NCBI GenBank assembly: GCA_000002445.1
Contig: CP000069.1
Coordinates: 960,001 to 1,024,000 of the forward strand
Length of the DNA stretch: 64,000 nt
Direction of reading: 5' to 3'
From: Trypanosoma brucei
Lineage: Eukaryota
Shown: in pieces, positions 1,641 to 45,662 of the stretch
How the letters are laid out: each line of letters starts with the position of its first letter
How positions within the stretch are numbered: the first letter of the stretch is position 1
Program-made: the position numbers and the translations under genes
The notes under the pieces: model-generated
Seen by the model: the letters and a program-made list of their open reading frames with translations, nothing else
What the model was told of the DNA's origin: nothing
The model's database searches: none

Positions 1641-1656
1641 GACGAAGTGAATTCAC

Positions 1657-4327: not shown

Positions 4328-5197
4328 CAGAATAAGGATGAGGAATGATATGTGGTTACTTGAGATTTTTTCCGCACCAAATAAAAATGCGGCACATCTC
4401 GATTACTGTTCTCTTCCACAGTCGATGGCAAACTTTCCCTTTCGGTCTATCAGTTTCTTTTTGTCCTCGTTGCGTACCGTGCTCAAGTCATATTTTTTGC
4501 ACCTGTATGATATGCGTAATATTGCTTTAAACATATGCGCTGATGAGTTTGTTGTGCACAACCGAGTAGCTGTCTCAGGTTATTTATTGTGTTTTGGACA
4601 CAACGCATTTGCTGGAGAAAATTGTTTTACTTTTCTCTTGTAGTATCAGTGAGTTTACCTCTTTTTTTGTATATATATTTTTTACTTCTTTCTATGCACA
4701 TCTAGACTCCATACGTGTGTTTGGTACTCACTTCACTATCGTTGCTAATTTCCGTTTGGGAGTTACAGCTGTACGTATCCCAGTTCTTTTTTCTTCTTTT
4801 GCTCTTCCTGGAATTGCTATGTGGAGTAATTCTTTCCTTATGCCAAGAAAATATGTGAGTTTAGTGGAGTGGACTGGAGAAAAAGAAAGGCCTCCACACA
4901 TCGCTGTAATTCATTCTTTACTTACTGTGTGCCCTGATGATTGCGAGAGTGGGAAAATCCACTATACAAAACAGTAGTTGTGTTCCGGAGCGAAAGTACT
5001 TTATATATATATGTATATATGTATTGAGACGTTGTTTAGGAGGACTTTCTCGTATCCCTATTGATTCCCCTCCCCCATCCGTGAAGATTTCCGTTGTATC
5101 CCTATCTGAAACTATTTCGTCGGTAACTTTTCGTTTTTCCACGATTACTACCATAGTTAGTGCCATATTTTAGGAAATAATAACGTCACTACTTCAG

Positions 5198-24836: not shown

Positions 24837-25923
24837 ATAAGAATTTTTTAAAAATGTAACACCGCATACTTTTACATATTTTCTCCCGACATTTTTTAAT
24901 TTACCGACAATTCCGTACATCACCCCTCAATTCACCACAACATTTCCCCGAAACCTCGTCAAGGAAAAAAAAGAAAATATGGTTTTCTTCACGAACGCGC
25001 AATCGGCAACAAAGCAAAACAAACTGAAAACAACGTAGATCTTCAAAAAAGCAAGGAGAATCCCAAGGAACAAGAAAATACAAATACATACTATCACCTT
25101 CACCACCAACATAAAAGAAGAAGCATTTTACAAAACTATGAAAAAGCTGAGGGGTCGACACCCCCTTCGGAGTGTAATTTTTGAAGAGAATTACCGAATA
25201 GAAACGGGAGTTTCGTATACCGCTCTGGATGAAAGCTTTCCTGTTGTTCATGGCTTTTTTTTTCGTATCGAAGGGGGGAAGGTACACTTTTGTCGGCGTG
25301 CAAGTGAGTTTAGCACGTAGTCGCCACACAAATACTGAGGCATTTAGTGGGCTGGTAAATGAACTCAAATCATTTTCCAACTGGAGGGAAATATCAGAGA
25401 AACTTACGTGGGAGATTATATGTGTACATCAAGAGGACTGGAAAAGCGTTGCGGATGTTCAGAATTGCGAGGCAACGGGTGAAGCGAGAATGAAGAGAAT
25501 TCGTACTCAGTCTGGCAGTACAAATTGTCCGCGTGAGGATCGAAGAGGAGTTAATAAAGCTAATGCTCTTTGGAAAATGTTTTTTTTTTTCAGTACCGTC
25601 TTCGGGTGGGAAAGAATGCGATTCCCACTTTGTTTTCTTCCGCTGTGACGGACTCCAGTGTGAGTACCTTACAGACACTTCTTCCCTGATAATGTCTTCA
25701 TATCAACATCATTTATTTTGATTACTCTAATGAGATGAATACTTATGTTATGTTGATTTGAATATAACCGATGTGTCTCCCTTTTTATATTCATAAATAA
25801 TTAGATGCGAAATACCATACTTATTTAACCTGTTTGCAAAATAATGTGTTGATTGACATATACGTTATGTTCACCTACATTTTTTTGCATATAGTCTCAC
25901 CATGCTTGTACACTTGCCCAATT

Positions 25924-26125: not shown

Positions 26126-26999
26126 AAACAAATGCTATTTGTTTAAGTTAGGTTTTTTCTATCTTCTCTTTTCATTGTTCACATAAACATTGCATGTTAG
26201 TGTTTTCGACAAAGCAGTGCATTCAACAATATTAGCATTTTTCAGTAATAATAAAACATAAATATATCTATGTGTTCCTCTCTATTTATATTTTTAATGT
26301 GCATGCGCTTACGGTACGAAAGAAAACATCTATTGTATTAAATTTTTACCACTTATTACAACTTAATAGTTGGATTCCTGCATGGTGCACTCCAACTCTC
26401 CCTTCCTATCTGCTTATCTACAACACTTTTATTTCTCACATACCATCACATGATTCTAATAGGGATATGGTTATACTAGCTGATTCCGTGATAGCTTCCC
26501 CCCTTGGTTTTTTTTCCAAAAATGACGGGAAATGATACGAGAGATGTTGGGACCTCCAACGAAAATTCGTTTCTGTTACTTTGACAAGTACATGATACAG
26601 TGTTAGACTTAAATGCGGGGATGGAGTTCATTAAAGGACAGATGAAAATACAGAGAGATGAAATTGCGTCTATGGATATGAGACTTAGCAAACAAATGAA
26701 AATACGGGAGGAAAAAGGTGTGGATATAAGTAGGACGTTGAATTGGCTGACGTTACTGGTTGAAAATGAGCGTCCTGGTGCATATGAATCTGCGTACAAT
26801 GTAATACAGCGCGTAATCTCATATGACGATAATAAGGGATTGCTGGGGTTGCATGCTGAGGAAAGGGTTGCTAACCTTCGGGCAGATGAAAAATGCCATA
26901 CCAGGTTCGACCGAAATGGGCCGATATTGCATGTTATCACCTCTAAGAAGGGTTGGTCATGCACAGATTTTGGTGGAAGAGATGCATGCGACATGTTTG

Positions 27000-27150
27000 T
27001 GCGCAAGGAGACGGTACGTATGTGGCACAGAATCCGAGCACATTTGGATGATTGGTTACCGACTGGCTCCCAAGTGTCCCAACAGCCCCTCTTACTTGTT
27101 TGTTCTCGGGAGATCGGAAAATCCTGTGGTCGGGAGAATACAGCGATGTG
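27000..27150 (-). mobile_element. Degenerate ingi-related (DIRE-like) fragment on the minus strand. It is 5'-truncated inside the AP-endonuclease region and may extend further toward about 26.5 kb.
   Basis: The reverse complement of 27100-27150 reads cacatcgctgtattctcccgaccaca..., matching the internal ingi site catcgctgtattctcccgataccgaccaccatcaca at 27762 in copy 1. Downstream similarity (gagaacaaacaag against gagacgacacagac) decays quickly. Confidence 0.4.
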
Positions 27151-27376
27151 CCCTGACGATGCCAGCCACCTCAACGTGGTGTCAGAGTCCAGTACCCCGT
27201 CTCATCGGGGGAAGCCAAGAGCCAGCAGCGTTCCTTTCATGGGCAACACTGCTGTGCTCCGGCTACGGCATCATACAGCACAGGGATCAGCAGCGTCTTG
27301 CTGGGACACCGTTTTTCATTTGTCGGTCCATGGGCACGTGCCAGCGTGTCATCAGCAGTATATCATCCACACTAAG

Positions 27377-30300
27377 ATGCTGCTGTCCGGTGATGTGGAA
27401 GAGAATCCCGGCCCGTCGTTGCGCGGGATGCAGTGGAACTGCGCCGGGCTATCTCAAGGAAAGAGATTAGCATTAGCACGTCGGCATACATCCCACCAAA
27501 ACGCACATTCACGGCAAATGACTTAGATACGCTTCTGACGACCGACGGTGCCCAGCTCATCGGTGCAGACGCTAACGCACACGCGTTGGTATGGGATCGC
27601 GCGAGCCCACCAAATACCAAGGGTGAAACCCTCACACAGTGGTGCATTGACAACCAGCTTCTGGTCTGTAACACTGGTGAGTGCACCAGGTACGCCCGCC
27701 ACCACGTGAAGCCCACCCCTGATATGACGCTATCAAGGAATTTCACAGTGTCCAGGTGGACATCGCTGTATTCTCCCGATACCGACCACCATCACATATT
27801 TTTCGACGTTATTGTTGGAGACGACACAGACTCACTGAGCTGCCCGCGGCTTTGAAAACCCATGTACGCATAGCTAAAAGCTGACTGGAGGAATTTCCGT
27901 CTCAAGGTTGACGAGTTCTGCAGAAAAATTGGTAGAGAATAACGTCAACACCCTGAAACAGAAATTGAGCTCCGCCATCCGCATTGCGACGAAGGTCTCC
28001 GTTCCCCGTGGCTGCAGAGCAACGCCACCACATGGGACACCTGCGCTCGCGAAACTCGATGAAGAGATCGCTGGATACGGACCCTCTCACCGAAGGGAAA
28101 AGTTGGTAGCCACGCGTAAGCAGATCCTGGACCGCACCACAAAGAAGAGATGGAGCACGCTATGCTCCAGACTTGCGGTGTCAGACCGCTGCAGTTGGCA
28201 CATTGTCAAGAAAGTATACGCGCCACGACCACTAACCACACCGGCTGTACTTGTTGATAACGCGGCCATCACGGACTACCGTCAAGCTGAGAGGTTCAGT
28301 AAACTGTACTCATCCCGCGCAAGAAGGCACCCCGACTCACACCCACCGGCACCCATAAAGACGATAGCGAGTGAGTTTAGTCTCATCACGATAGCTGAAC
28401 TACGGAGATCGATCAAACTGCTACCGAGTGGATCCGCAGCCGGACCTGATTGCTTATACAACGAGGCATTACAACATCTCGGTAGAGCAGCGCTGAATGT
28501 TGTGCTGAGGCTATTCAATGAGAGCCTACGAATGGGAGCCGTGCCGTCTGCATGGAAGACCGGTGTTATCATCCCCATCCTGAAGGCCAGAAAAAAGGAA
28601 GAGTACCCCGAATCTTACAGGCCTGTGACGCTCACGAGCTGTCTCTGCAAAGTCATGGAGCGCATAATTGCCGCAAGGTTTAGAGACACTGTTGAGTCCC
28701 AGCTGACGCCGCAGCAATCAGGCTTTCGCCCCGGATGCTCACCGCTCGAACAACTCCTGCACGTCTGCGCTGCCCTCTGCCGTCCCACGCACCAATATCG
28801 TACAGGTGCTGTATTCGTTGACTACGAGAAGGCATTTGACACAGTAGACCACGACAAAATTGCGGGGGAAATGCACAGAATGAAGGTATCACCCCACATT
28901 GTGAAGTGGTGCGTATCATTTCTGAGTAACCGAACTGGTAGAGTGAGATTCAAGGAGAAACTTTCCAGAAGCAGAACATTTGAGCGAGGAGTGCCACAAG
29001 GAACTCTCCTTGGCCCAATCATGTTCATAATTGTCATGAACTCGTTGAGCCAACGCCTTGCAGAAGTGCCGTTGCTGCAGCACGGATTCTTTGCAGACGA
29101 CCTGACGCTACTTGCGAGGCACACAGAGGGATGTCATCAACCAGACGCTACAATGCGGCCTAAACGTGGTGTTACAGTGGTCAAAAGAGTACTTCATGTC
29201 TATCAATGTAGCGAAAACAAAGTTCACACTCTTCGGGTTCACAGAGCGCCACCCCCTTACATTACAACTGGAAGGCGAAAGAATAGGAGCTGACAGGACA
29301 CCGAAGCTTCTAGGAGTAACATTCCAGTGTCTGCAAGGGATGGCAACACATGCGGCCGAAACGAGACGCAAGATGGACTTCCGACTACTGCAGATAACAG
29401 TCATCTCAGCTTCTATATGGGGGCCAATACGACAAGTGCTGAGAGCTTTTTATCTAGCACTCGTACAGGCACGCACCATGTGTGGCATTGAGGTATGGTA
29501 CTGGGACGCTTCGGAACGAAGTCGCGACCTCCTTGCAGCAGCACAACACAAAGCCAGTCGAATCATAGCTGGCATACCGCATGGGACGCGCGAAGAGGAC
29601 TCTCTGCTGGAAGCAAACCTCCTGCCACTCAAGACGACCACTCTTGTGCGCAGCATGAAATTCATGCTGATGTGTGAGTCACGAGGCGGATGTTTGCGGC
29701 GCAGTGCTGAGGAAGTATACCACAGCAAACACCCAGTCAGAGCCCTACACTCCCGCATCATGCGGTCCTACCCCCACCTCCGCATTGAGCCACGCGAGCA
29801 CCCACTAGAGACATCGACGCTCCGCCACAGCTGCCGACCGATATTTCACACGCAGATAAAGCCTGTGTGCGCTGATGACCCTGACAATGTCAAAAGGGAG
29901 GCTTCCGAAAAGTGATTGCACGGCATTTTTCACGGAGGGGGAAGGAGCCACCGCGGCGAGTGCACTACGAATTGTGGACTGATGGATCCGTGCCCCTCGG
30001 TGAGAAGTCCGGATCAACTGCCCTGCTCTATAGAAACAACACGCTGATTTGTGCACCCGAGACCGGAGCAGGGGAACTTTCATGCAGTTACAGAGCGGAA
30101 TGCGTAGCATTAGAGATAGGACTGTAACGGCTGCTGAAATGGCTTCTGGCATACAGAAGCACACCGAGCAGGTTGTCCATCTTCTCTGACTCGCTGTCAA
30201 TGTTAACAGCACTGCAGACGGGCCCCCTATCCGTAACGGACCCAATTCTGAGACGACTATGGAGGCTTCTGCTTCAAGTTGAGAGAAGGAAGGTGCGTAT

Positions 30301-31883
30301 CCGACTGCAATTTGCGTCCGGCCATTGTGGCGTGAAACGGAATGAGGTTTGCGATGAAATGGCCAAAAAGGCCGCTGATTTACCACAGTTGCGAGACGCA
30401 TGGATCCCCGACATCATTGCTTATGCGAAGCGAGTGCTTAGGTCGGAAGAAGTCTATGAGAACACTCATAGGTTTGGTATCACGGGCAACCACTTTCCAA
30501 CAAAACATAAAGAAGAACTGACGGGGGAAGAAGAAACGGCACTGGCACGCTTTCGGGTTGGAGTCTTCAAGATACTATGGATGGATGTTGCGAAAGATCA
30601 ACCCGAGTGTGCCTCCACAGTGCCGATGGTGCAACCCGCAACATGCAGCAATAGGGCCAACAATACAAACAGTCCCAACTGTTGCGACACGCACTCTTCA
30701 GAGAACCTCCGAACCAACTAAATGTACGGAATGTGATGCCACATACCAATACCTGTCGAATGCTGTAACGCACATGGTAAACAAACATGGCTTTGTGCGA
30801 GCTGATGCCCTCCGGAGGATCAAATACGGCGATGCAACACCCGCAGTGGACATCCTCCCGGAGCCCTCTCCAGTGGTGGCGATCGTTCCTCTACCATCGA
30901 GCATACGAGTCCTGATGAGACCGCAGGTGCTTTACTGTACCCTCTGTGCCTCCAAATTCGCAGTGCCAGGCCGACTATTACACCATCTTAGAACAATACA
31001 TGGCATAGGCAGCGGTAGTTGCCGCGTGAAAAGGGGGCGAGAGAGCGAGGACTCAGTGCAAGGAGATGGTAGCGTCCCAGCAGCCCCAGCCCCTCAGGAA
31101 ACACGGAAGCTGCCGTTTCAATGTGACCTGTGCGAGGCGAGCTTCAGTACACGTTCTTCCCTGTCACTACACAAGAAATTCAAGCATAAGAGCATAGTGA
31201 CGGAGGACGGTACCGTGGTGTTGGTGCAATTCCCTCGTAAGCGTGCCCGTGAGGGAAACGTTGACGTCCCGGGGAAAGGCGAGGTGCAGTGTGGTGTGTG
31301 TCAAAAAGTGCTCAGTTGCAGGGACTCCCTCATCCGACACTGTAAGGCTTTCCACAAAGGTGAGGGAGTCGAGCTTAAATGCAGCAAAAGCACAAAATTG
31401 CGTGCCACTGATTCCCCGCATACAAATGCATCCATGTTGGTGCGCCCGACATGCGGAAGGCAGTGTGCTAGCAAAACTGGCCTCACCCTACATCAAAAGA
31501 AGATGCACGGTATGAAGGTAGAGCGCGCTGTTACCAGCCAACGCGGCGACTGCGAAGAAACGTCGCTGCACCTGATGAGCTGTCCCAGTTTGAAGGAGTT
31601 ACGTGTCAGGCTTGCAGTAGAAGGTGAGTGTGTGCAGGATATATGTTTTTCCAAAAGGCTGGCGCAATTTCTCATTGCGGTTGAACGGAGCCGGCCGCAG
31701 GTGAAGTCCTCCCCCAATGTAACAGTCATACAACCCACTCTCCCTTCTGCAACTTCCCAGCTTATTGCCGAGTGTGGAGCTAGCAGGAAAAGCACCGGAC
31801 GCTGGAATAGTCCAGACACCCTCAGAGACAGAGGGGGTATGCAGTTAACAAGCAACAGAAACAGAAAGAGGGAGAGAGAATAA
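27377..31883 (+). pseudogene. ingi polyprotein ORF (APE-RT-RNase H-ZnF) disrupted by multiple frameshifts
   Basis: The ORF track shows successive fragments 26600-27526, 27433-27855, 27908-29293, 29112-29915, 30173-30721 and 30558-31883 in different frames. Together they reconstitute one retrotransposon polyprotein. Confidence 0.75.
27392..27415 (+). other. 2A-like co-translational ribosome-skipping motif (D-V-E-E-N-P-G-P) at the N-terminus of the ingi ORF
   Basis: The codons gat gtg gaa gag aat ccc ggc ccg encode ...MLLSGDVEENPGPSLRGMQWNCAGL... The motif lies about 12 codons upstream of the APE domain start (QWNCAGL) and conforms to the canonical D(V/I)ExNPGP. Confidence 0.8.
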
Positions 31884-33611
31884 TAAACAAATAACAAAAT
31901 TCAAAACAAAAGGATTGCTAATTGACATTTTTGTGAGAGTCCGGGGTGGGAGGCTTCTCGCCCCGTCTGCTGTATTCCGTTCAACTGCGGAGCTACAACA
32001 AAACGTTATAGAGAGGGTGTGTTAGGATGAATAATAAAGGGAGACTCTGCCACAGTCGCCAGACCGATAGCATCTCAGGGCTCTACGGTGATGGCTGATG
32101 GCCGTGCCAGTGGGGGGAAACTCTCACGAAGGCACGAAAAAAAAAATTTTTAAAGTCTATAGGCAAACCTCTACCCTGATATGGCTAATGTTATCCGCTA
32201 AGAGATTTTGTTCGTGTCAGTATAAGCAGATGTCTCATGCCACAAGAGAATTTACGTATGGTTTTTGCTGCAAACAAACCAAATGATATACTTAAGTTTA
32301 CGTGTTTTCTTTCTTATAATTGAAATAGATGACATTATTTTGTCCATCTTTTTTTCCTTTTCTACTGACCAATCGCCTTCCGTATTTCTCATCCTGATGT
32401 CGAATATTATTCCTGTTTCCTCATTTTTTATTTCAGTAAACAGCAATTTTGCACAGCTATCACTCGACAAAAAATATGTTAATAATCTGAATAGTAATGA
32501 TTATATTATTATAAGAGAACACATTCATGTACGCCACTACTTCTCCCAGTAACAACGATAATCATACATAACATTGTATGTGCGTGTTCACGCGTTTCTC
32601 GTACATTATCATTTCTTTTGTTGTAATGTCCCTGTTTGAGTCATCTCAATTGCGAGTTATTATAACTCTGGTTGTCCCTCCACTATCTTTGTTTGGGGGT
32701 GGTGGGGTGTGTTAATGCTCTTTGCATGTGGAGTGGGGATAGAGGAATAGGGCCCTGCTTATGTGAAGAGTGTGTGAAGTAAGGATGATGAGAGTTACTT
32801 ATAAGGTGTGTAATTATTTTGCGTGTGGAAAATGGTCTAAATGAGGGTGCTGAGAGGGAAGGTCTCTAATTATTCTGGGACTGTTTTGTGTGCTAGCAAC
32901 TAACATAATATTCCATCATGCCAACGTATAATGAAAGGTTTCATTAATAAGCTTAATTTTCTGAGATGGTGTTTTGAAACCCCAATTGTTACCTTTACTA
33001 GTGTGTTGTTTAGGAAAATGGAACGCAAGAAGCTGTGTATACATATAGAGAGGGAAAGAAAGAGTATTTCCAGTACGCGTATGAAAGGAAGAGGATATGC
33101 TGAATAGGGCTCAGTAGCAGAGTTGTGTTCATTGGACAAGGGTAACACGTGCGTGCAAATTAGGCACGTGATGTGCCAGCGAATTAAGCTATTAAAGTAG
33201 CAACTGGAGCCAATGGAGGACTTGGAAAAATAGCATAACGTGAAGGTGCAAGTACTCATGAGGAGAATGGATAAGCTTGTTATTGATGGAAGGTGCAGCG
33301 CAGCTCAGTTGGAGGTGCGGTTACTTGGCATGATGGTTAGTGAAGTTTTTTTTTTTTGAATCAAGAAGTTAGGGAAAATGGGGTAACCAACAGGAAAACA
33401 CCTGTGAGGGAACTCAATGTTGATATACGGCTTGAGGGGAGGGTTCCATACAACTCTGTGTGCTTTGGGATGTGCTTCCTCTTTTGTTGAATGCTGCTGT
33501 AGTTGGTTTGTGTCAGGCACTTATTAATTTCGATATTTTTATGTGTCTGTTTGTTGTGTCTGTCAATAACAACAACAATTGTTATGACAAGCTTTAGTTT
33601 TCTCCTCCTTT

Positions 33612-35249: not shown

Positions 35250-37255
35250 TTTTTTTTGAAAGCTCGCTGTCGATGCTACGACATCTTATGGGAGCTGAAA
35301 CTTTATGTAACTTTTTTTTATTGTGTATCATGCTGCGTTGTCAGTGTACTATTAGCTTGTTACTATCTGTGTCGGATAAAGCTATATTTGTCTTGTTAAT
35401 GACTTTTATAGGTTGGGTCGGAACTAGTTGTAAAAGACAAGTAGGCGTTACTGAAATTTTAATTTTCAACCATTCGCTATGGCTGTAAAAGCGTACTTGC
35501 GAGTGAAAGGCTTCTGCCTCTTTTTTTTTTTTTTGAGCCAAACGTAGAAGAGCATAGTGGAGTTTACAATTTTCATTCAGAGGAGTGGGCAGCTTTTTGT
35601 GTAGTCTATTCTCCTTTATAGGGGTGTTCCTCTCGAATGAAGAAAGTACATGTTGGAAGAGAATGAGGGGTTTCTCAATTTCTAGGAGGAATTGTGCAAG
35701 GTTCTTGGTGAACACTATCTTCTGCATATTTTTGCCCTCAAGCCCGAAGTAACTGCGGAGCACTTTAGGCTTGAGCGCGCGAGTATGTGGGTGGGATTCT
35801 CTTCGCATTCGTTGGAGTGTGTATGTTTCCTTTCAACGCAGATTTCATGTTTTTGATGGCGATGTATAGATGAGCCTGATGTTGATTGGGACGTCTTATT
35901 TCGGTTTACGAACGTGAAGTGTAGATGAAACCCTCTGACGTTGAAGCTCCGGAGCGGTGGTGGAGATTCTTTTGCTACGGAGAAGGGATGCTGTCTATGC
36001 ATTCCCCCGAAGTGCTCCATCAGGCTGTCTTTTGATACATGCGTATGACGGCATTGCGTGCAACAGGTGTCATTTAGACCTATAGTTACCGTGTTCCAAA
36101 TGAGGGATACCTCTTGTTCTGTGATGGAACGGCTCCGTTTTGTACCAGCGTTACTATCCAGGGGATGGCCTCTGCGGTGTTGAATCTTGGTGCTTGGTGT
36201 TGTTCCCCCTTTTGATTGTGATACAAAGCTGCATTGCCTGCATTGTAGCGGCTCAGATGTGCCTACTGGGTCGTGCACTGGATGCCCTCTCGTTTCCGTC
36301 GCTCGGGAGCCCTTTGTTGGAATACTTGCATTCTCTTCGAGTTCCCATTGCCTTTTTATTCCTCGCGACCCCGTTTGCGGTTGTACTTCGCAGTATTTCA
36401 TCCCGTGACTTATCACTAGTCCAATTTACGTGTGAAATATATAGCTGCGAGGTCCATATATCGCTTCATTTTCTCCAGAGGTTGAACTGGTGGTGTTATC
36501 ACTTTGTTCATTGGTGTTGGGTTGATGCGGTCGGTTTTCACTTTGTGTGCCTATCCGTTTCTCCACCACTGGAATGATGTGCTAAAGCTGACCTCTGCTC
36601 TTTATTCCATGACGCATTGTCGAGTCTCTCTGCTCAATCAATTTGAACCCACAGATTCCTCACTGGAGTGTGTTTTTTATCATATTCAGTGTGGATTATG
36701 GTTCCGCCAGTGTGGGGTGGAAAGGGACTGCCGTTGGTCATGTAGTGTTTCTGTGGCCTGCGCAATGTTAGTACACCTGCGCTCTTGGATTGAAAAAGCC
36801 ACGTTCTGCGCAAACCCATTTGTGCTGTTTGATATTTTCATCTTCTTTCCGCTTCTCCGACATTTCATCGTCTAACTTTCTCGTTTTGCCGTGAAGGCAT
36901 CGAGTTTTGTGCCATGTGAGCCCTCCTTTGTTTCCATAGGATTTGTTACAGACACTGAGCACATACGACTTCGGTGGAGGGGGCAGGGGTTATAAGGTGA
37001 ACATTCCACATCACCGAACAGCAGCATCTTAGTGTGGATGATATACTGCTGATGGCACGCTGGCACGTGCCCAGCGAACGACAAATGAAAAACGGTGTCC
37101 CAGCAAGACGCTGCTGATCCCTGTGTTGTATGATGCCGAGGCCGGAGCACAGCAGAGTTCCCCATGAAAGGAACGCTGCTGGCTCTTGGTTTCCCCCGAT
37201 GATGCGGGGTACTGGACTCTGGCACCACGTGGAGGTGGCCGGCATCGCCAGAGGG
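35250..37255 (-). mobile_element. Old degenerate ingi-related element (DIRE) on the minus strand with a large internal deletion. Its 5' Pr77/2A end lies at 37255 and its 3' T-rich end near 35250.
   Basis: The minus-strand ORF 36872-37258 encodes HLHVVPESSTPHHRGKPRASSVPFMGNSAVLRPRHHTTQGSAASCWDTVFHLS...MLLFGDVE, about 88 percent identical to copy 1 residues upstream of its 2A motif. The reverse complement of 37241-37255 is the Pr77 start (ccctctggcgatgcc). The region 36885-37000 is a weak reverse-complement match to the APE start. Minus ORFs 35715-36416 and 35341-35808 keep ingi C-terminal features (PLQCRQCSF..., CTQCRHTHVSKDSLMEHFGGMH, NLAQFLLEIEKP against KRLAQFLIAVERSRP). Poly(T) runs sit at about 35090-35260. 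Confidence 0.5.
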
Positions 37256-37402
37256 CATCGCTGTATTCTCCCGATACCGATCACCATCACATATTTTTCG
37301 ACGTTATCGTTGGAGACGACACAGACTCACTGAGCTGCCCGCGGCTTTGAAAACCCATGCACGCATAGCTAAAAGCTGACTGGAGGAATTTCCGTCTCAA
37401 GG

Positions 37403-39775
37403 TTGACGAGTTCTGCAGAAAAATTGGTAGAGAAGAATGTCAACACCCTGGAACAGAAATTGAGCTCCGCCATCCGCATTGCGACGAAGGTCTCCGTTCC
37501 CCGTGGCTGCAGAGCAACGCCACCACATTGGACACCTGCGCTCGCGAAACTCGATGAAGAGATCGCTGGATACGGACCCTCTCACCGAAGGGAAAAGTTG
37601 GTAGCCACGCGTAAGCAGATCCTGGACCGCACCACAAAGAAGAGATGGAGCACGCTATGCTCCAGACTTGCGGTGTCAGACCGCTGCAGTTGGCACATTG
37701 TCAAGAAAGTATACGCGCCACGACCACTAACCACACCGGCTGTACTTGTTGATAACGCGGCCATCACGGACTACCGTCAAGCTGAGAGGTTCAGTAAACT
37801 GTACTCATCCCGCGCAAGAAGGCACCCCGACTCACACCCACCGGCACACATAAAGACGATAGCGAGTGAGTTTAGTCTCATCACGATAGCTGAACTACGG
37901 AGATCGATCAAACTGCTACCGAGTGGATCCATAGCCGGACCTGATTGCTTATACAACGAGGCACTGCAACATCTCGGTAGAGCAGCGCTGAATGTTGTGC
38001 TGAGGCTATTCAATGAGAGCCTACGAATGGGAGCCGTGCCGTCTGCATGGAAGACCGGTGTTATCATCCCCATCCTGAAGGCCAGAAAAAAGGAAGAGTA
38101 CCCCGAATCTTACAGGCCTGTGACGCTCACGAGCTGTCTCTGCAAAGTCATGGAGCGCATAATTGCCGCAAGGTTTAGAGACACTGTTGAGTCCCAGCTG
38201 ACGCCGCAGCAATCAGGCTTTCGCCCCGGATGCTCACCGCTCGAACAACTCCTGCACGTCTGCGCTGCCCTCTGCCGTCCCACGCACCAATATCGTACAG
38301 GTGCTGTATTCGTTGACTACGAGAAGGCATTTGACACAGTAGACCACGACAAAATTGCGGGGGAAATGCACAGAATGAAGGTATCACCCCACATTGTGAA
38401 GTGGTGCGTATCATTTCTGAGTAACCGAACTGGTAGAGTGAGATTCAAGGAGAAGCTTTCCAGAAGCAGAACATTTGAGCGAGGAGTGCCACAAGGAACT
38501 GTCCTTGGCCCAATCATGTTCATTATTGTCATGAACTCGTTGAGCCAACGCCTTGCAGAAGTGCCGTTGCTGCAGCACGGATTCTTTGCAGACGACCTGA
38601 CGCTACTTGCGAGACACACAGAGAGGGATGTCATCAACCAGACGCTACAATGCGGCCTAAACGTGGTGTTACAGTGGTCAAAAGAGTACTTCATGTCTAT
38701 CAATGTAGCGAAAACAAAGTTCACACTCTTCGGGTGTATAGGGCGCCACCCCCTTACATTGCAACTGGACGGCGAAAGGATAGGAGCTGACAGGACACCG
38801 AAGCTTTTAGGAGTAACATTCCAGTGTCTGCAAGGGATGGCAACACATGCGACCGAAACGAGACGCAAGATGGACTTCCGACTACTGCAGATAACAGTCA
38901 TCTCAGCTTCTATATGGGGGCCAATACGACAAGTGCTGAGAGCTTTTTATCTAGCACTCGTACAGGCACGCACCATGTGTGGCATTGAGGTATGGTACTG
39001 GGACGCTTCGGAACGAAGTCGCGACCTCCTTGCAGCAGCACAACACAAAGCCAGTCGAATCATAGCTGGCATACCGCATGGGACGCGCAAAGAGGACTCT
39101 CTGCTGGAAGCAAACCTCCTGCCACTCAAGACGACCACTCTTGTGCGCAGCATGAAATTCATGCTGATGTGTGAGTCACGAGGCGGATGTTTGCGGCGCA
39201 GTGCTGAGGAAGTATACCACAGCAAACATCCAGTCAGAGCCCTACATTCCCGCATCATGCGGTCCTACCCCCACCTCCGCATTGAGCCACGCGAGCACCC
39301 ACTAGAGACATCGACGCTCCGCCACAGCTGCCGACCGATATTTCACACGCAGATAAAGCCTGTGTGCGCTGATGACCCTGACGATGTCAAAAGGGAGGCT
39401 CCCGAAAAGTGGATTGAACGGCATTTTGCACGGAGGGGGAAGGAGCCACCGCGACGAGAGCACTACGAATTGTGGACTGATGGATCCGTGCCCCTCGGTG
39501 AGAAGTCCGGATCAACTGCCCTGCTCTATAGAAACAACACGCTGATTTGTGCACCCAAGACCGGAGCAGGGGAACTCTCATGCAGTTACAGAGCGGAATG
39601 CGTAACATTAGAGATAGGACTGCAACGGCTGCTGAAATGGCTTCCGGCATACAGAAGCACATCGAGCAGGTTGTCCATCTTCTCTGACTCGCTGTCAATG
39701 TTAACAGCACTGCAGACAGGCCCCCTAGCCGTAACGGACCCAATTCTGAGACGACTATGGAGGCTTCTGCTTTAA
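37403..39775 (+). pseudogene. ingi copy 2 RT-RNase H ORF (790 aa), terminated by a premature stop shared with copy 3
   Basis: RT motifs (FFADD) and RNase H (ELWTDGSVPLGEKSGSTALLY). The ORF ends ...RRLWRLLL at a TAA where copy 1 has CAA (Q). Confidence 0.8.
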
Positions 39776-40055
39776 GTTCAGAGAAGGAAGGTGCGTATCC
39801 GACTGCAATTTGCGTCCGGCCATTGTGGCGTGAAACGGAATGAGGTTTTCGATGAAATGGCCAAAAAGGCCGCTGATTTACCACAGTTGCGAGACGCATG
39901 GATCCCCGACATCATTGCTTATGCGAAGCGAGTGCTTAGGTCGGAAGAAGTCCATGAGAACACTCATAGGTTTGGTATCACCTGCAACCACTTTCCAACA
40001 AAACATAAAGAAGAACTGACGAGGGAAGAGGAAACGGCACTGGCACGCTTTCGGG

Positions 40056-41519
40056 TTGGAGTCTTCAAGATACTATGGATGGATGTTGCGAAAGATCAAC
40101 CCGAGTGTGCCTCCACAGTGCCGATGGTGCAACCCGCAACATGCAGCAATAGGGCCAACAATACAAACAGTCCCAACTGTTGCGACACGCACTCTTCAGA
40201 GAACCTCCGAACCAACCAAATGTACGGAATGTGATGCCACATACCAATACCTGTCGAATGCTGTAACGCACATGGTAAACAAACATGGCTTTGTGCGAGC
40301 TGATGCCCTCCGGAGGATCAAATACGGCGATGCAACACCCGCAGTGGACATCCTCCCGGAGACCCCTCCAGTGGTGGCGATCGTTTCTTTACCATCGAGC
40401 ATACGAGTCCTGATGAGACCGCAGGTGCTTTACTGTACCCTCTGTGCCTCCAAATTCGCAGTGCCAGGCCGACTATTACACCATCTTAGAACAATACATG
40501 GCATAGGCAGCGGTAGTTGCCGCGTGAAAAGGGGGCGAGAGAGCGAGGACTCAGTGCAAGGAGATGGTAGCGTCCCAGCAGCCCCAGCCCCTCAGGAAAC
40601 ACGGAAGCTGCCGTTTCAATGTGACCTGTGCGAGGCGAGCTTCAGTACACGTTCTTCCCTGTCACTACACAAGAAATTCAAGCATAAGAGCATAGTGACG
40701 GAGGACGGTACCGTGGTGGTGTTGCAATTCCCTCGTAAGCGTGCTCGTGAGGGAAACGTTGACGTGCCGGGGAAAGGCGAGGTGCAGTGTGGTGTGTGTC
40801 CAAAAGTGCTCAGTTGCAGTGACTCCCTCATCCGACACTGTAAGGCTTTCCACAAAGGTGAGGGAGTCGAGCTTAAATGCAGCAAAAGCACAAAATTGCG
40901 TGCCACTGATTCCCCGCATACAAATGCATCCATGTTGGTGCGCCCGACATGCGGAAGGCAGTGTGCTAGCAAAACTGGCCTCACCCTACATCAAAAGAAG
41001 ATGCACGGTATGAAGGTAGAGCGCGCTGTTACCAGCCAACGCGGCGACTGCGAAGAAACGTCGCTGCACCTGATGAGCTGTCCCGGTTTGAAGGAGTTAC
41101 GTGTCAGGTTTGCGGTAGAAGGTGAGTGTGTGCAGGATATATGTTTTTCCAAAAGGCTGGCGCAATTTCTCATTGCGGTTGAACGGAGCCGGCCGCAGGT
41201 GAAGTCCTCACCTAATGTAACAGTCATACAACCCACTCTCCCTTCTGCAACTTCCCAGCTTATTGCTGAGAGTGGAGCTAGCAGGAAAAGCACCGGACGC
41301 AGGAATAGTCCAGACACCCTCAGAGAGGGGGTATGCAGTCAACAAGCAACAGAAACAGAAAGAGGGGGAGAGAATAATAAACAAAGAACAAAATTCAAAA
41401 CAAAAGGATTGCTAATTGACATTTTTGTGAGAGTCCGGGGTGGGAGGCTTCTCGCCCCATCTGCTGTATTCCGTTTAACTGCGGAACTACAACAAAACGT
41501 TATAGAGAGGGTGTGTTAG
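40056..41519 (+). pseudogene. ingi copy 2 C-terminal C2H2 zinc-finger ORF (487 aa)
   Basis: Multiple C2H2 fingers (CTECDATYQYLSNAVTHMVNKHGF, CTLCASKFAVPGRLLHHLRTIHG, CDLCEASFSTRSSLSLHKKFKHK, CGVCPKVLSCSDSLIRHCKAFH). It is frameshifted relative to the upstream ORF. Confidence 0.75.
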
Positions 41520-41568
41520 GATGAATAATAAAGGGAGACTCTGCCACAGTCGCCAGACCGATAGCATC

Positions 41569-42750
41569 TCAGGGCTCTACGGTGATGGCTGATGGCCGTG
41601 CCAGTGGGGGGAAACTCTCACGAAGGCACGAAGAAAATTCCAAAAAAAAAAAAATAGAGAAGCATATATCCTGCACACACTCACCTTCTACCGCAAACCT
41701 GACACGTAACTCCTTCAAACCGGGACAGCTCATCAAGTGCAGCGACGTTTCTTCGCAGTCGCCGCGTTGGCTGGTAACAGCGCGCTCTACCTTCATACCT
41801 TGCATCTTCTTTTGATGTAGGGTGAGGCCAGTTTTGCTAGCACACTGCCTTCCGCATGTCGGGCACACCAACATGGATGTGTTTGTATGCGGGGAATCAG
41901 TGGCACACAATTTTGTGTTTTTGCTGCATTTAAGCTCGACTCCCTCACCTTTGTGGAAAGCCTTACAGTGTCGGATGAGGGAGTCCCTGCAACTGAGCAC
42001 TTTTTGGCACACACCACACTGCACCTCGCCCTTCCCCGGGACGTCAACGTTTCCCTCACGGGCACGCTTACGAGGGAATTGCACCAACACCACGGTACCG
42101 TCCTCCGTCACTATGCTCTTATGCTTGAATTTCTTGTGTAGTGACAGGGAAGAACGTGTACTGAAGCTCGCCTCGCACAGGTCACATTGAAACGGCAGCT
42201 TCCGTGTTTCCTGAGGGGCTGGGGCTGCTGGGACGCTACCATCTCCTTGCACTGAGTCTTCGTTCTCTCTCCAACTTTTCACGCGGCAACTACCGCTACC
42301 TATGCCATGTATCGTTTGAAGGTGGTGTAATAGTCGGCCTGGCACTGCGAATTTGGAGGCACAGAGGGTACAGTAAAGCACCTGCGGTCTCATCAGGACT
42401 CGTATGCTCGATGGTAAAGAAACGATCGCCACCACTGGAGGGGGCTCCGGGAGGATGTCCACTGCGGGTGTTGCATCGCCGTATTTTATCTTTCGAAGGG
42501 CATCAGCTCGCACAAAGCCATGTTTGTTTACCATGTGCGTTACAGCATTCGACAGGTATTGGTATGTGGCATCACATTCCGTACATTTGGTTGGTTCGGA
42601 GGTTCTCTGAAGAGTGCGTGTCGCAACAGTTGGGACTGTTTGTATTGTTGGCCCTATTGCTGCATGTTGCGGGTTGCACCATCGGCACTGTGGAGGCACA
42701 CTCGGGTTGATCTTTCGCAACATCCATCCATAGTATCTTGAAGACTCCAA
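41569..42750 (-). pseudogene. ingi copy 3 C2H2 zinc-finger ORF, C-terminally truncated at the breakpoint
   Basis: It matches the copy 1 and copy 2 ZnF ORFs up to ...VQDICFS, then continues into unrelated sequence (the copy 2 poly(A) region read in reverse). Confidence 0.7.
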
Positions 42751-45662
42751 CCCGAAAGCGTGCCAGTGCCGTTTCCTCTTCCCTCGTCAGTTCTTCTTTA
42801 TGTTTTGTTGGAAAGTGGTTGCACGTGATACCAAACCTATGAGTGTTCTCATGGACTTCTTCCGACCTAAGCACTCGCTTCGCATAAGCAATGATGTCGG
42901 GGATCCATGCGTCTCGCAACTGTGGTAAATCAGCGGCCTTTTTGGCCATTTCATCGAAAACCTCATTCCGTTTCACGCCACAATGGCCGGACGCAAATTG
43001 CAGTCGGATACGCACCTTCCTTCTCTGAACTTAAAGCAGAAGCCTCCATAGTCGTCTCAGAATTGGGTCCGTTACGGCTAGGGGGCCTGTCTGCAGTGCT
43101 GTTAACATTGACAGCGAGTCAGAGAAGATGGACAACCTGCTCGATGTGCTTCTGTATGCCGGAAGCCATTTCAGCAGCCGTTGCAGTCCTATCTCTAATG
43201 TTACGCATTCCGCTCTGTAACTGCATGAGAGTTCCCCTGCTCCGGTCTTGGGTGCACAAATCAGCGTGTTGTTTCTATAGAGCAGGGCAGTTGATCCGGA
43301 CTTCTCACCGAGGGGCACGGATCCATCAGTCCACAATTCGTAGTGCTCTCGTCGCGGTGGCTCCTTCCCCCTCCGTGCAAAATGCCGTTCAATCCACTTT
43401 TCGGGAGCCTCCCTTTTGACATCGTCAGGGTCATCAGCGCACACAGGCTTTATCTGCGTGTGAAATATCGGTCGGCAGCTGTGGCGGAGCGTCGATGTCT
43501 CTAGTGGGTGCTCGCGTGGCTCAATGCGGAGGTGGGGGTAGGACCGCATGATGCGGGAATGTAGGGCTCTGACTGGATGTTTGCTGTGGTATACTTCCTC
43601 AGCACTGCGCCGCAAACATCCGCCTCGTGACTCACACATCAGCATGAATTTCATGCTGCGCACAAGAGTGGTCGTCTTGAGTGGCAGGAGGTTTGCTTCC
43701 AGCAGAGAGTCCTCTTTGCGCGTCCCATGCGGTATGCCAGCTATGATTCGACTGGCTTTGTGTTGTGCTGCTGCAAGGAGGTCGCGACTTCGTTCCGAAG
43801 CGTCCCAGTACCATACCTCAATGCCACACATGGTGCGTGCCTGTACGAGTGCTAGATAAAAAGCTCTCAGCACTTGTCGTATTGGCCCCCATATAGAAGC
43901 TGAGATGACTGTTATCTGCAGTAGTCGGAAGTCCATCTTGCGTCTCGTTTCGGTCGCATGTGTTGCCATCCCTTGCAGACACTGGAATGTTACTCCTAGA
44001 AGCTTCGGTGTCCTGTCAGCTCCTATCCTTTCGCCGTCCAGTTGCAATGTAAGGGGGTGGCGCCCTATACACCCGAAGAGTGTGAACTTTGTTTTCGCTA
44101 CATTGATAGACATGAAGTACTCTTTTGACCACTGTAACACCACGTTTAGGCCGCATTGTAGCGTCTGGTTGATGACATCCCTCTCTGTGTGTCTCGCAAG
44201 TAGCGTCAGGTCGTCTGCAAAGAATCCGTGCTGCAGCAACGGCACTTCTGCAAGGCGTTGGCTCAACGAGTTCATGACAATAATGAACATGATTGGGCCA
44301 AGGACAGTTCCTTGTGGCACTCCTCGCTCAAATGTTCTGCTTCTGGAAAGCTTCTCCTTGAATCTCACTCTACCAGTTCGGTTACTCAGAAATGATACGC
44401 ACCACTTCACAATGTGGGGTGATACCTTCATTCTGTGCATTTCCCCCGCAATTTTGTCGTGGTCTACTGTGTCAAATGCCTTCTCGTAGTCAACGAATAC
44501 AGCACCTGTACGATATTGGTGCGTGGGACGGCAGAGGGCAGCGCAGACGTGCAGGAGTTGTTCGAGCGGTGAGCATCCGGGGCGAAAGCCTGATTGCTGC
44601 GGCGTCAGCTGGGACTCAACAGTGTCTCTAAACCTTGCGGCAATTATGCGCTCCATGACTTTGCAGAGACAGCTCGTGAGCGTCACAGGCCTGTAAGAAT
44701 CGAGGTACTCTTCCTTTTTTCTGGCCTTCAGGATGGGGATGATAACACCGGTCTTCCATGCAGACGGCACGGCTCCCATTCGTAGGCTCTCATTGAATAG
44801 CCTCAGCACAACATTCAGCGCTGCTCTACCGAGATGTTGCAGTGCCTCGTTGTATAAGCAATCAGGTCCGGCTATGGATCCACTCGGTAGCAGTTTGATC
44901 GATCTCCGTAGTTCAGCTATCGTGATGAGACTAAACTCACTCGCTATCGTCTTTATGTGTGCCGGTGGGTGTGAGTCGGGGTGCCTTCTTGCGCGGGATG
45001 AGTACAGTTTACTGAACCTCTCAGCTTGACGGTAGTCCGTGATGGCCGCGTTATCAACAAGTACAGCCGGTGTGGTTAGTGGTCGTGGCGCGTATACTTT
45101 CTTGACAATGTGCCAACTGCAGCGGTCTGACACCGCAAGTCTGGAGCATAGCGTGCTCCATCTCTTCTTTGTGGTGCGGTCCAGGATCTGCTTACGCGTG
45201 GCTACCAACTTTTCCCTTCGGTGAGAGGGTCCGTATCCAGCGATCTCTTCATCGAGTTTCGCGAGCGCAGGTGTCCAATGTGGTGGCGTTGCTCTGCAGC
45301 CACGGGGAACGGAGACCTTCGTCGCAATGCGGATGGCGGAGCTCAATTTCTGTTTCAGGGTGTTGACATTCTTCTCTCTACCAATTTTCCTGCAGAGCTC
45401 GTCAACCTTGAGACGGAAATTCCTCCAGTCAGCTTTTAGCTATGCGTGCATGGGTTTTCAAAGCCGCGGGCAGCTCAGTGAGTCTGTGTCGTCTCCAACA
45501 ATAACGTCGAAAAATATGTGATGGTGGTCGGTATCGGGAGAATACAGCGATGTCCACCTGGACACTGTGAAATTCCTTGATAGCGTCATATCAGGGGTGG
45601 GCTCCACGTGGTGGCGCGCGTACCTGGTGCACTCACCAGTGTTACATACCAGAAGCTGGTTG
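41663..45662 (-). mobile_element. ingi copy 3 (minus strand), truncated at both ends. The 5' end lies in the APE domain at about 45662 and the 3' end at an internal site in the ZnF region at about 41663, so there is no 3' tail or poly(A).
   Basis: It is the reverse complement of copy 2 at about 98 percent identity and shares the same premature stop (...RRLWRLLL). The RT ORF is 43031-45346, followed by 42572-43015 and 41569-42750 on the minus strand. Homology to copy 2 stops at gatatatg (reverse complement of 41663-41670), whereas copy 2 continues there with tttttccaaaaggctggcg.... Confidence 0.85.
43031..45346 (-). pseudogene. ingi copy 3 RT-RNase H ORF (771 aa)
   Basis: Nearly identical to the copy 2 ORF. 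An extra GA near the 5' end (tagagagaagaatg against tagagaagaatg) shifts the first 19 codons out of frame. Confidence 0.8.

What the first reader, a model, noticed from the sequence alone, without database searches (positions are those of the whole stretch)
27100..27200. Ingi 5' end abutting an inverted, internally truncated ingi fragment; the same junction recurs as a mirror image at 37241-37270
At 27150|27151 the plus strand reads ...gggagaatacagcgatgtg|ccctgacgatgcc.... Read on the minus strand this is ggcatcgtcaggg|cacatcgctgtattctccc, meaning a Pr77 5' end (reverse complement) joined to the internal APE site catcgctgtattctcc. At 37255|37256 the plus strand reads ggcatcgccagaggg|catcgctgtattctccc, which is the same junction in the opposite orientation. 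Two loci therefore carry the same head-to-head fusion between an element's extreme 5' end and a second element truncated at the identical internal nucleotide. The two loci differ in which side is young and which is degenerate. This is not expected from independent insertions. It suggests one of three things: an ancestral head-to-head or twin-primed structure that was duplicated in inverted orientation and later partly homogenised by gene conversion; a recombination-prone site within the APE-coding sequence; or insertion-site preference of the ingi endonuclease for that ingi sequence.
Basis: seen in the sequence. Interest (0 to 1): 0.7.

Follow-up and report, generated by a model that had tools for sequence, protein, structure and literature searches.

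The report
Copied ingi retroelement junction in RHS pseudogene
Two ingi retrotransposon 5' ends in a Trypanosoma brucei chromosome 6 repeat cluster share the same 15-20 bases of upstream flank because about 240-270 bases around one junction were copied onto the other by recombination, a natural example of a known repair pathway and not a new kind of element.

Summary
The strings are at the stated coordinates. The two junctions match in mirror image over 271 nt at 92.6% identity: ingi nt 1-250 plus about 20 nt of flank.

At 37255|37256 an element 5' end does abut a 5'-truncated ingi (ingi nt 611-4998, 98% identical to ingi A) head to head. At 27150|27151 the flank is not an ingi fragment. It is the N-terminal part of an RHS (retrotransposon hot spot) pseudogene, in frame with the ingi. 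Only 15-17 nt, plus a TCGG shared by both sequences, equal antisense ingi.

The orthologous junction in T. b. gambiense DAL972 and T. b. equiperdum IVM-t1 has a different 17-mer (TTGAAACATGCTGCCCA) after the same RHS sequence. In TREU927, 27 strain-private changes cluster between -17 and +250, and 20 of them match locus B. These include a TA insertion and an A seen in no other copy.

Best reading: a TREU927-lineage ectopic gene conversion, with homology on the ingi side and microhomology (TCGG) on the RHS side, copied a locus-B-type junction onto the RHS::ingi junction.

The element left of 37255 is an ingi 5' end fused to the 3' part of a DIRE (degenerate ingi-related element). It contains the annotated gene Tb927.6.3400.

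This is ordinary biology for this genome. Interest is modest.

The parts
26603..27133 (+). N-terminal fragment of an RHS (retrotransposon hot spot) pseudogene. It ends ...SREIGKSCGR (degenerate P-loop) and is in frame with the ingi that follows.
   Evidence: Pfam RHS_N, E = 4.2e-5, above the gathering score. Translation. tblastn with T. theileri and other RHS proteins matches 26774-27130 at E = 1e-11 to 1e-12. Identical up to TCGG (27130-27133) in IVM-t1 and gambiense.
27134..27150 (+). 17-nt patch GAGAATACAGCGATGTG. Its first 16 nt, with the preceding TCGG, make a 20-nt identity (27130-27149) to antisense ingi nt 629-610. The patch is specific to TREU927.
   Evidence: The orthologous 17 nt in IVM-t1 and gambiense read TTGAAACATGCTGCCCA.
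27151..32148 (+). Ingi A, full length (4,998 nt, A10 tail, several broken reading frames). Carries Pr77 at its 5' end and a 2A-like motif LLSGDVEENPGP at 27380-27415. No target-site duplication.
27134..27400 (+). Inferred gene-conversion tract. Its minimum extent is -16 to +219 (27135-27369). It is bounded on the left by TCGG and on the right by the end of homology with the locus B element at ingi nt 250.
   Evidence: Differences per 100 nt between strains. There are 27 TREU927-private sites and 20 match locus B. The TA insertion at +209/210 and the A at +219 are shared only by A and B among 10 copies.
27760..27779 (+). Native internal ingi 20-mer ACATCGCTGTATTCTCCCGA (ingi nt 610-629, end of the endonuclease domain). 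It is the reverse complement of 27130-27149.
   Evidence: The same sequence is in ingi C.
35522..37255 (-). Locus B element. It consists of ingi-type nt 1-250 (37255-37004) fused to the 3' part of a DIRE, with an A15 run at 35537-35522. It contains the Tb927.6.3400 reading frame (35715-36401) and belongs to a dispersed repeat family.
   Evidence: Weak colinear match to the ingi C-terminal zinc-finger region. 21-member cluster at 90% identity on many chromosomes. Copies at 94-96% identity in L008, L010 and L011. DIRE colinearity with ingi.
37256..41656 (+). Ingi B, 5'-truncated at ingi nt 611, with a complete 3' end and A14 tail. It is 98.1% identical to ingi A. Its first 20 nt are the sequence shared with locus A.
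41657..45662 (-). Ingi C (ingi nt ~501-4505) on the opposite strand. With ingi B it forms a 3.9-kb inverted repeat at 98.9% identity.

Best explanation
The window is T. brucei brucei TREU927 chromosome 6, at a convergent strand-switch region filled with ingi, RHS, DIRE and VSG debris.

Locus B (37255|37256). This is a nested junction. An element that starts exactly at ingi nt 1 (Pr77), and consists of ingi 1-250 plus a DIRE 3' part, lies in antisense orientation against ingi nt 611 of a resident ingi. It most likely arose by retrotransposition into that ingi, followed by rearrangement of the far side. That step is inferred.

Locus A (27150|27151). This is a classical RHS hot-spot junction, with an ingi in frame in an RHS pseudogene. 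In T. b. gambiense and T. b. equiperdum this junction reads RHS...TCGG + TTGAAACATGCTGCCCA + ingi.

The copying event. In the TREU927 lineage, a stretch from 16-17 nt upstream of the ingi to about nt 220-250 inside it was overwritten with sequence from a locus-B-type junction. This carried 15-17 nt of antisense ingi into the RHS pseudogene.

Proposed mechanism. The event fits ectopic, non-reciprocal repair. Strand invasion would occur in the shared 250-nt ingi 5' region. Synthesis would run across the donor junction. The repair would then be resolved on the RHS side at the 4-nt microhomology TCGG. [quoted passage not shown]

Shown here: the anatomy, the strain polymorphism, the clustering of private changes and their match to locus B. 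Inferred: the break, the direction of synthesis, the use of TCGG, and whether the donor was this locus B or a paralogue.
For: 1. The flank of A is RHS, not ingi.
2. TREU927, IVM-t1 and gambiense are identical up to ...CCTGTGGTCGG. They then differ in the next 17 nt. TREU927 equals locus B at 10 of the 12 variable sites there.
3. Divergence between TREU927 and the other strains is 0-4 per 100 nt in most of the RHS flank (one 100-nt bin holds an 18-nt indel). It is 20-22 per 100 nt at the junction bin and 5-7 in the next 200 nt. It drops to 2-4 beyond ingi nt 250, exactly where homology between A and the locus B element ends.
4. Of 27 TREU927-private sites between -17 and +250, 20 match locus B. 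The TA insertion at +209/210 and the A at +219 occur only in A and B among 10 ingi/RIME/DIRE 5' ends compared.
5. The locus B junction is real and older than TREU927. It is present in T. equiperdum OVI.
6. One-sided gene conversion in T. brucei, with homologous recombination on one side and microhomology joining on the other, is documented. It copied 28-1084 bp, and classical NHEJ was not seen (PMC3045614).
7. No target-site duplication flanks ingi A or the locus B element. A genuine RIME insertion in the same region of IVM-t1 has a perfect 12-nt duplication. So these two junctions are products of recombination, not untouched insertions.
Against: - A and locus B are only 92.6-93% identical across the tract. 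Twelve sites are private to B and five or more are private to A. Either the event is old, or the tract is patchy, or the donor was another B-type copy. The OVI copy is only 95% identical to TREU927 locus B.
- Six of the ten ingi-internal sites where A matches B are simply the family consensus.
- TCGG (4 nt) is below the 5-20 bp microhomology range reported in PMC3045614.
- Ingi bodies differ by 3-10% between all three strains, so background exchange among copies is high and blurs tract boundaries.
- I could not obtain DNA of intact T. brucei RHS genes or of RHS clusters. I therefore could not show directly that TTGAAACATGCTGCCCA is the native RHS sequence.
- The same 20-mer also precedes an ingi 5' end inside a DIRE on other chromosomes. 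The 'ancestral' locus A junction may itself be an older patch.
Confidence: 0.6

Rival explanations
1. Independent retrotransposition into the same preferred target. Under this reading the ingi endonuclease recognises the motif around TCGGGAGAATACAGCGATG. This motif occurs in antisense inside the ingi endonuclease-coding region and, by chance or homology, at this RHS hot spot. Two elements would then have landed at the same sequence.
For: Ingi/RIME insertions are known to have a 12-bp target duplication preceded by an 11-bp consensus (Bringaud et al. 2004, recalled from memory, not read here). The few flanks sampled here show xGTxGGxT at -23 to -16. The RHS site GGTCGGTT fits this, and the locus B site TATCGGGA fits partly. 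This could explain the origin of locus B.
Against: The orthologous RHS site in two other subspecies does not contain the 15-17-mer, so it was not a pre-existing target. Neither element has a target-site duplication. Target preference does not explain the A/B-specific variants shared inside the element at +209 to +219. None of the other 5' ends sampled in other loci has this flank.
Confidence: 0.1
2. RNA-mediated copying. A transcript reading from antisense ingi into a B-type element, and escaping 5' processing, would be reverse-transcribed. This gives an ingi copy with a 17-nt 5' extension (5' transduction or template jump) that then replaced the resident copy at the RHS hot spot.
For: Both locus A states, in TREU927 and in the other strains, have exactly 17 nt between RHS...TCGG and element nt 1. 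Each 17-mer equals the flank of an ingi-type 5' end elsewhere. This would fit a fixed-length 5' extension.
Against: It requires precise replacement of the earlier ingi at the same nucleotide, without a new target duplication or a second copy. The private-change cluster ends at about +250, the limit of DNA homology with the locus B element, whereas a new insertion would replace the whole 5-kb element. The body beyond +250 is as close to the other strains as any ingi body is.
Confidence: 0.1
3. An ancestral head-to-head or twin-primed pair of ingi elements was duplicated in inverted orientation, and the two copies then decayed on opposite sides.
For: Locus B really is a head-to-head arrangement. 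The region has large inverted ingi repeats and an inversion polymorphism between strains.
Against: The sequence left of 27130 is RHS coding sequence with no ingi similarity. The mirror homology is only 271 nt. Gambiense and IVM-t1 lack the patch at locus A. Twin priming would give an inverted 5' segment continuous with the same element. It would not give an element's nt 1 abutting nt 611 of a copy that extends 4.4 kb.
Confidence: 0.04
4. Assembly artefact. One junction would be a mis-joined or duplicated copy of the other.
For: The region is highly repetitive. Other assemblies break or carry N gaps here.
Against: A and B differ at about 7% of positions and share only 271 nt. The locus B junction is independently present in T. 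equiperdum OVI. The RHS::ingi join at the same RHS nucleotide is present in two other assemblies.
Confidence: 0.03

Closest known systems
RHS pseudogenes carrying RIME/ingi at the 'hot spot' (Bringaud et al. 2002, Eukaryot Cell 1:137; summarised in PMC7563717)
   Same: An ingi sits in the same orientation and reading frame as an RHS gene, a few codons after the P-loop (GKS), and splits the gene.
   Different: In TREU927 the last 15-17 nt before the ingi are antisense ingi sequence, not the sequence found at the orthologous junction in two other subspecies. No RHS C-terminal half and no target duplication follow the ingi.
[quoted passage not shown]
   Same: A few hundred bp are copied non-reciprocally from an ectopic donor. 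One end of the tract lies in real homology and the other at a microhomology. The inferred tract of about 240-270 bp lies within the 28-1084 bp observed experimentally.
   Different: This is a natural event inferred from strain comparison, not an induced break. The microhomology is 4 nt, below the typical 5-20 bp. The donor lies about 10 kb away on the same chromosome in inverted orientation, or may be an unsampled paralogue.
Chimeric ingi/RIME elements lacking target-site duplications, attributed to recombination between copies (Bringaud et al. 2004, Mol Biol Evol 21:520; from memory, paper not held)
   Same: Ingi A and the locus B element both lack duplications and have mosaic 5' regions.
   Different: Here the exchanged segment extends beyond the element into 15-17 nt of the donor's flank. 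That is what makes the event visible.
DIRE (degenerate ingi/L1Tc-related elements) and RIME
   Same: The locus B element shares ingi nt 1-250, as RIME does. Its remainder matches a DIRE 3' region with zinc-finger remnants.
   Different: It is not a RIME, because the 3' half is not the last 250 nt of ingi. It is not a whole DIRE either. In L008 and L010 the same Pr77 + DIRE-3' unit sits inside a longer DIRE.
L1 twin priming / 5' inversion
   Same: Head-to-head arrangement of sequences from the same LINE family.
   Different: The inverted partner is a separate 4.4-kb copy with its own poly(A). The junction involves the intact nt 1 of one element. Neither feature is expected from twin priming.

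Membership tests
ingi (Tbingi) non-LTR retrotransposon | About 5 kb long, with the conserved ~77-79-nt 5' signature (Pr77) at nt 1 and a poly(A) 3' end | tested here: met
   27151-32148 is 4,998 nt, starts CCCTGACGATGCC... and ends in A10.
ingi (Tbingi) non-LTR retrotransposon | Encodes an AP-endonuclease and a reverse transcriptase | tested here: met
   RVT_1 hits at E = 4e-35 and 7e-44. Homologues of the 5' reading frame carry Exo_endo_phos domains.
ingi (Tbingi) non-LTR retrotransposon | 12-bp target-site duplication | tested here: not met
   None for ingi A: the flanks are ...ACAGCGATGTG and TTTTTAAAGTCT. The copy is therefore post-insertionally recombined.
RHS (retrotransposon hot spot) gene family | RHS N-terminal domain followed by the P-loop GxxGxGKS | tested here: met
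   Pfam RHS_N at 23.9 bits against a cut-off of 21. Degenerate P-loop SREIGKS. tblastn with RHS proteins at E ~ 1e-11.
RHS (retrotransposon hot spot) gene family | RIME/ingi inserted a few codons after the P-loop, in the same orientation and frame | tested here: met
   GKS, then 8 codons, then ingi nt 1. A reading frame runs 26600-27526 across the junction. Description in PMC7563717.
RHS (retrotransposon hot spot) gene family | The sequence at the hot spot is the same as in other T. brucei RHS::RIME/ingi junctions | not testable with these tools
   No T. brucei RHS cluster DNA could be fetched. The protein searches returned only T. theileri and T. cruzi RHS. TREU927 is not in the contig look-up.
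RIME | First ~250 nt plus last ~250 nt of ingi, about 500 bp in total | tested here: not met
   The locus B element has ingi 1-250 but then 1.5 kb of DIRE-type sequence. A true RIME for comparison is at L002 18397-18899.
DIRE (degenerate ingi-related element) | Colinear with the ingi coding sequence at low protein-level identity, with reading frames decayed | tested here: met
   The L010 copy is colinear with ingi nt 1-3482 and 3555-4538 at 30-45% translated identity. The window reading frame matches the ingi zinc-finger region at 24% over 115 aa, E = 3e-6.
[quoted passage not shown] | Non-reciprocal copy from a donor that keeps its own sequence | tested here: met
   Locus B keeps the junction. 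Locus A gains it only in TREU927.
[quoted passage not shown] | Homology at one end of the tract and microhomology at the other | tested here: inconclusive
   The right end lies within or at the end of the 250-nt shared ingi region. The left end is at TCGG, only 4 nt.
[quoted passage not shown] | RAD51 dependence and initiation by a double-strand break | not testable with these tools
   Requires experiments (PMC3045614).
L1-type twin priming | The inverted 5' segment and the direct 3' segment derive from one RNA, within one target duplication | tested here: not met
   The two partners are different elements: Pr77 + DIRE 3' against ingi 611-4998 with its own A14 tail. There is no duplication.

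The most novel reading that the evidence does not exclude
Ingi-type 5' junctions may behave as exchangeable cassettes of about 17 nt of flank plus the Pr77 region, spread between loci by one-sided gene conversion. The anchor would be the short G-rich motif (..TxGG..) that the ingi target consensus places about 18 nt upstream of every insertion.

If so, the 'identical insertion position' that defines the RHS hot spot could partly reflect recombinational spread of one junction, and not repeated site-specific retrotransposition.

Two observations hint at this. First, locus A carries two different 17-mers in different strains after the same TCGG. Second, the non-TREU927 17-mer, together with its first ~45-80 nt of Pr77, is the same as a junction inside DIRE copies on other chromosomes.
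Probability: 0.15. Interest if true: 0.55.

Novelty: new member of a known kind. Interest (0 to 1): 0.3.

Why it matters
It corrects a tempting misreading. What looks like two independent 'ingi into ingi at the same nucleotide' events is really one nested junction plus a copied patch.

It gives a clean natural example, polarised by two other subspecies, of microhomology-assisted ectopic gene conversion in T. brucei. Only the carry-over of 15-17 nt of foreign flank makes the event visible. This pathway is thought to matter for VSG and subtelomere evolution.

It shows that the annotated gene Tb927.6.3400 and its ~20 paralogues are DIRE remnants.

It also warns that ingi flanking sequences used to infer endonuclease target preference can be contaminated by recombination.

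Tried and rejected
- Searching for ingi similarity in the locus A flank with relaxed blastn and tblastx found nothing beyond 19 nt. The 'inverted ingi fragment' reading was rejected.
- A protein search with the RHS pseudogene fragment gave no hits because of the word-index limit.
- A search with the junction-spanning peptide found only 12 ingi 5' reading frames, none with an RHS or RENTAM flank.
- An HMMER scan of representatives gave RHS proteins from other species. Re-searching with one of them (T. theileri) returned no T. brucei RHS. Native T. brucei hot-spot DNA was therefore never obtained.
- The Bringaud 2002 and 2004 papers are not held.
- Three contig look-ups with TREU927 paralogues of Tb927.6.3400 failed because TREU927 is not in that collection.
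As a result, the central 6.7 kb of the IVM-t1 locus, where its locus B junction should be, was not seen.
- An Rfam scan of the window found nothing.
- I looked for target-site duplications around ingi A, the locus B element and the L009 ingi. There are none.
- I considered a snap-back or self-templated origin of the patch from ingi A's own nt 610-629, which is an inverted 20-mer 610 nt away. I rejected it as the main explanation because the change also replaced the Pr77 region and shares private variants with locus B up to +219.

Full report
**1. Where the window comes from.**
Ten reading frames of the window are exact matches to annotated proteins of Trypanosoma brucei brucei TREU927 chromosome 6 (AAZ11887-AAZ11904), with orthologues in T. 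b. gambiense DAL972, T. b. equiperdum IVM-t1 and T. equiperdum OVI. Genes run on the + strand up to about 24 kb and on the - strand from about 47 kb. The finding therefore lies in a convergent strand-switch region. That region is filled by three ingi copies, an RHS pseudogene, a VSG pseudogene and a DIRE-derived element.

**2. Checking the observation.**
- Both quoted strings are at the stated coordinates.
- An ingi starts at 27151 on the + strand and ends in A10 at 32148 (ingi A, 4,998 nt).
- An ingi-type 5' end on the - strand starts at 37255.
- The 16-mer CATCGCTGTATTCTCC occurs four times, against 0.01 expected. Two of these are the native internal copies at ingi nt 611 of ingi A and ingi C.
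- Self-BLAST gives only one mirror-image match between the two loci: 27130-27400 against 37274-37004, 92.6% over 271 nt. A junction-specific pattern hits only these two sites.
- So the recurrence is real and far beyond chance.
- The match is short. The breakpoints differ by 2 nt (...GATGTG|CCCTGACG against ...GATG|CCCTCTGGCG). The long ingi bodies A and B lie in the same orientation.

**3. What lies on each side.**

*Locus B, left side (- strand).*
- Ingi homology stops at nt 250.
- The next 1.5 kb contains the annotated gene Tb927.6.3400, a member of a 21-protein cluster at 90% identity spread over many chromosomes.
- It has weak colinear similarity to the ingi C-terminal zinc-finger region.
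- Copies at 94-96% identity occur in gambiense chromosome 2, IVM-t1 chromosome 3 and gambiense chromosome 10.
- In two of those copies the same unit sits inside a longer element that is colinear with ingi at 30-45% translated identity, which makes it a DIRE.
- The locus B element is therefore an ingi 5' end fused to a DIRE 3' part. It is not a RIME. A true RIME in IVM-t1 has ingi nt 1-249 plus the last ~250 nt.

*Locus A, left side.*
- There is no ingi similarity beyond 19-20 nt.
- The + strand frame 26603-27150 encodes an RHS N-terminal domain (Pfam RHS_N; tblastn).
- It ends in a degenerate P-loop...SREIGKSCGRENTAM, and runs in frame into the ingi.
- This is the classical RHS hot-spot arrangement described by Bringaud et al. 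2002, as summarised in PMC7563717.

**4. Strain comparison.**
I fetched the orthologous locus from IVM-t1 (L007, L002) and from gambiense (L012, L003), plus the right flank from T. equiperdum OVI (L001).

| Strain or locus | Sequence after ...AATCCTGTGGTCGG |
|---|---|
| IVM-t1, locus A | TTGAAACATGCTGCCCA\|CCCTGGTGATGCTGGCC... |
| gambiense, locus A | TTGAAACATGCTGCCCA\|CCCTGGTGATGCTGGCC... |
| TREU927, locus A | GAGAATACAGCGATGTG\|CCCTGACGATGCCAGCC... |

- All three strains are identical through ...AATCCTGTGGTCGG. The antisense-ingi patch at locus A is therefore 15-17 nt plus a TCGG shared by both partners.
- The patch is specific to the TREU927 lineage. Two other subspecies, including gambiense, agree on the other state, which makes the TREU927 state derived.
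- Differences between TREU927 and the other two strains are 0-4 per 100 nt in most of the RHS flank; one bin holds an 18-nt indel. They are 20-22 in the junction bin, 5-7 in the next two bins, and 2-4 beyond ingi nt 250.
- Of 27 TREU927-private sites between -17 and +250, 20 match locus B. A TA insertion at +209/210 and an A at +219 are shared only by locus A and locus B among ten ingi/RIME/DIRE 5' ends.
- The cluster ends where homology between ingi A and the locus B element ends.
- The locus B junction also occurs in T. equiperdum OVI, so it is not a TREU927 assembly artefact.

**5. Mechanism.**
The simplest account is a non-reciprocal copy of at least 236 nt from a locus-B-type junction onto the RHS::ingi junction. 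One end of the tract lies in the shared ingi 5' region and the other at the TCGG microhomology.

T. brucei is reported to repair breaks by homologous recombination and microhomology-mediated joining, without classical end joining. [quoted passage not shown]

What remains inferred:
- the initiating break;
- the use of TCGG, which at 4 nt is below the reported 5-20 bp range;
- the identity of the donor. Locus A and locus B are only ~93% identical in the tract, with 12 B-private and at least 5 A-private sites, so the event is old, patchy, or came from a paralogous B-type junction.

The origin of locus B itself is also inferred. An element whose natural nt 1 abuts an arbitrary internal ingi position is most simply a retrotransposition into antisense ingi. 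The site (TATCGGGAGAA, then 12 nt) partly resembles the RHS site (GGTCGGTTGAA, then 12 nt) and the xGTxGGxT pattern seen upstream of a verified 12-nt duplication. The other side of that insertion has since been lost. Neither the locus B element nor ingi A has a target-site duplication.

**6. Rivals.**
- *Independent insertion at a preferred target.* This fails for locus A, because the 'target' is absent from the orthologous site in two subspecies. It also does not explain the shared internal variants.
- *An RNA-level event (5' transduction or template jump).* This is not excluded. It would require exact replacement of the earlier element, and it does not predict a tract ending at +250.
- *The twin-priming or duplicated head-to-head model.* This is contradicted by the RHS flank.
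- *Assembly artefact.* This is contradicted by ~7% divergence between A and B and by the independent OVI sequence.

**7. An open thread.**
The 20-mer CGGTTGAAACATGCTGC(C/A)CA, which precedes the ingi at locus A in IVM-t1 and gambiense, also precedes the Pr77 that sits inside DIRE copies on other chromosomes. The first ~45-80 nt of Pr77 are of the same variant type there.

Two possibilities remain:
- the 20-mer is native RHS hot-spot sequence that was copied into a DIRE; or
- the older locus A junction is itself a patch of the same kind.

Both patches start after the same CGG and are 17 nt long. This would follow if the conserved GG of the ingi target pattern, about 18 nt upstream of each insertion, acts as the common microhomology. 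I could not test this, because no T. brucei RHS cluster DNA could be retrieved.

**8. Verdict.**
It is wrong about the anatomy of locus A.

What is there is a known set of elements (RHS hot-spot ingi, a nested ingi/DIRE junction) linked by a known repair pathway. It is a new, well-polarised instance of that pathway, not a new kind of system.

Noticed in passing
window 37253-41149 (+) and 45555-41657 (-); junction at 41656|41657: Ingi B and ingi C form a 3.9-kb inverted repeat at 98.9% identity with a ~0.5-kb spacer. The A14 tail of ingi B abuts antisense ingi C at about ingi nt 4505. This looks like another ingi-into-antisense-ingi join, or a fold-back rearrangement.
   Followed up: partly
window 27-46 kb compared with L007/L002 (IVM-t1) and L012/L003 (gambiense): The segment between ingi A and ingi C is inverted in IVM-t1 relative to TREU927, consistent with recombination between inverted ingi copies. 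Gambiense has a third layout: ingi 1 to ~3960 joined to a full antisense ingi, with no locus B junction and no match to the VSG region. The tail-to-tail breakpoints differ in all three strains.
   Followed up: partly
window ~33368-33379; L002 18397-18899: A RIME is present in IVM-t1 with a perfect 12-nt target-site duplication (TTATTTTCCCTA). TREU927 has the empty site. This is a clean insertion polymorphism that confirms the 12-nt duplication and the upstream TGTTGGTTACC pattern.
   Followed up: yes
window 35715-36401 (-): The annotated 'hypothetical protein' Tb927.6.3400 and about 20 paralogues at 90% or more identity ('T. brucei spp.-specific protein') are the decayed zinc-finger region of a DIRE 3' part fused to an ingi 5' end. 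They are probably not a host gene family.
   Followed up: partly
window 33742-35019 (+): A reading frame with a VSG_B domain (E = 7e-22) lies inside a chromosome-internal convergent strand-switch region, flanked by ingi copies. It is 91% identical to the IVM-t1 counterpart.
   Followed up: no
window 27380-27415 (+) and 37026-37004 (-): Ingi A encodes a 2A-like motif, LLSGDVEENPGP. In the locus B element, ingi homology breaks inside this motif (LLFGDVE|CSPYN), close to the point where RIME joins its two halves.
   Followed up: no
L008 1-3886 and L010 7110-10988: A composite unit of at least 3.9 kb (a DIRE with an ingi-type Pr77 segment at DIRE position ~3500) is 97% identical between gambiense chromosome 2 and IVM-t1 chromosome 3. 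The composite as a whole has been duplicated or moved.
   Followed up: partly
L007 12777-13083 (corresponds to window ~25190-25500): In IVM-t1 a short RHS C-terminal-like fragment lies upstream of the RHS N-terminal pseudogene (tblastn E = 3e-6). The same search gave no hit in the window at that threshold.
   Followed up: no
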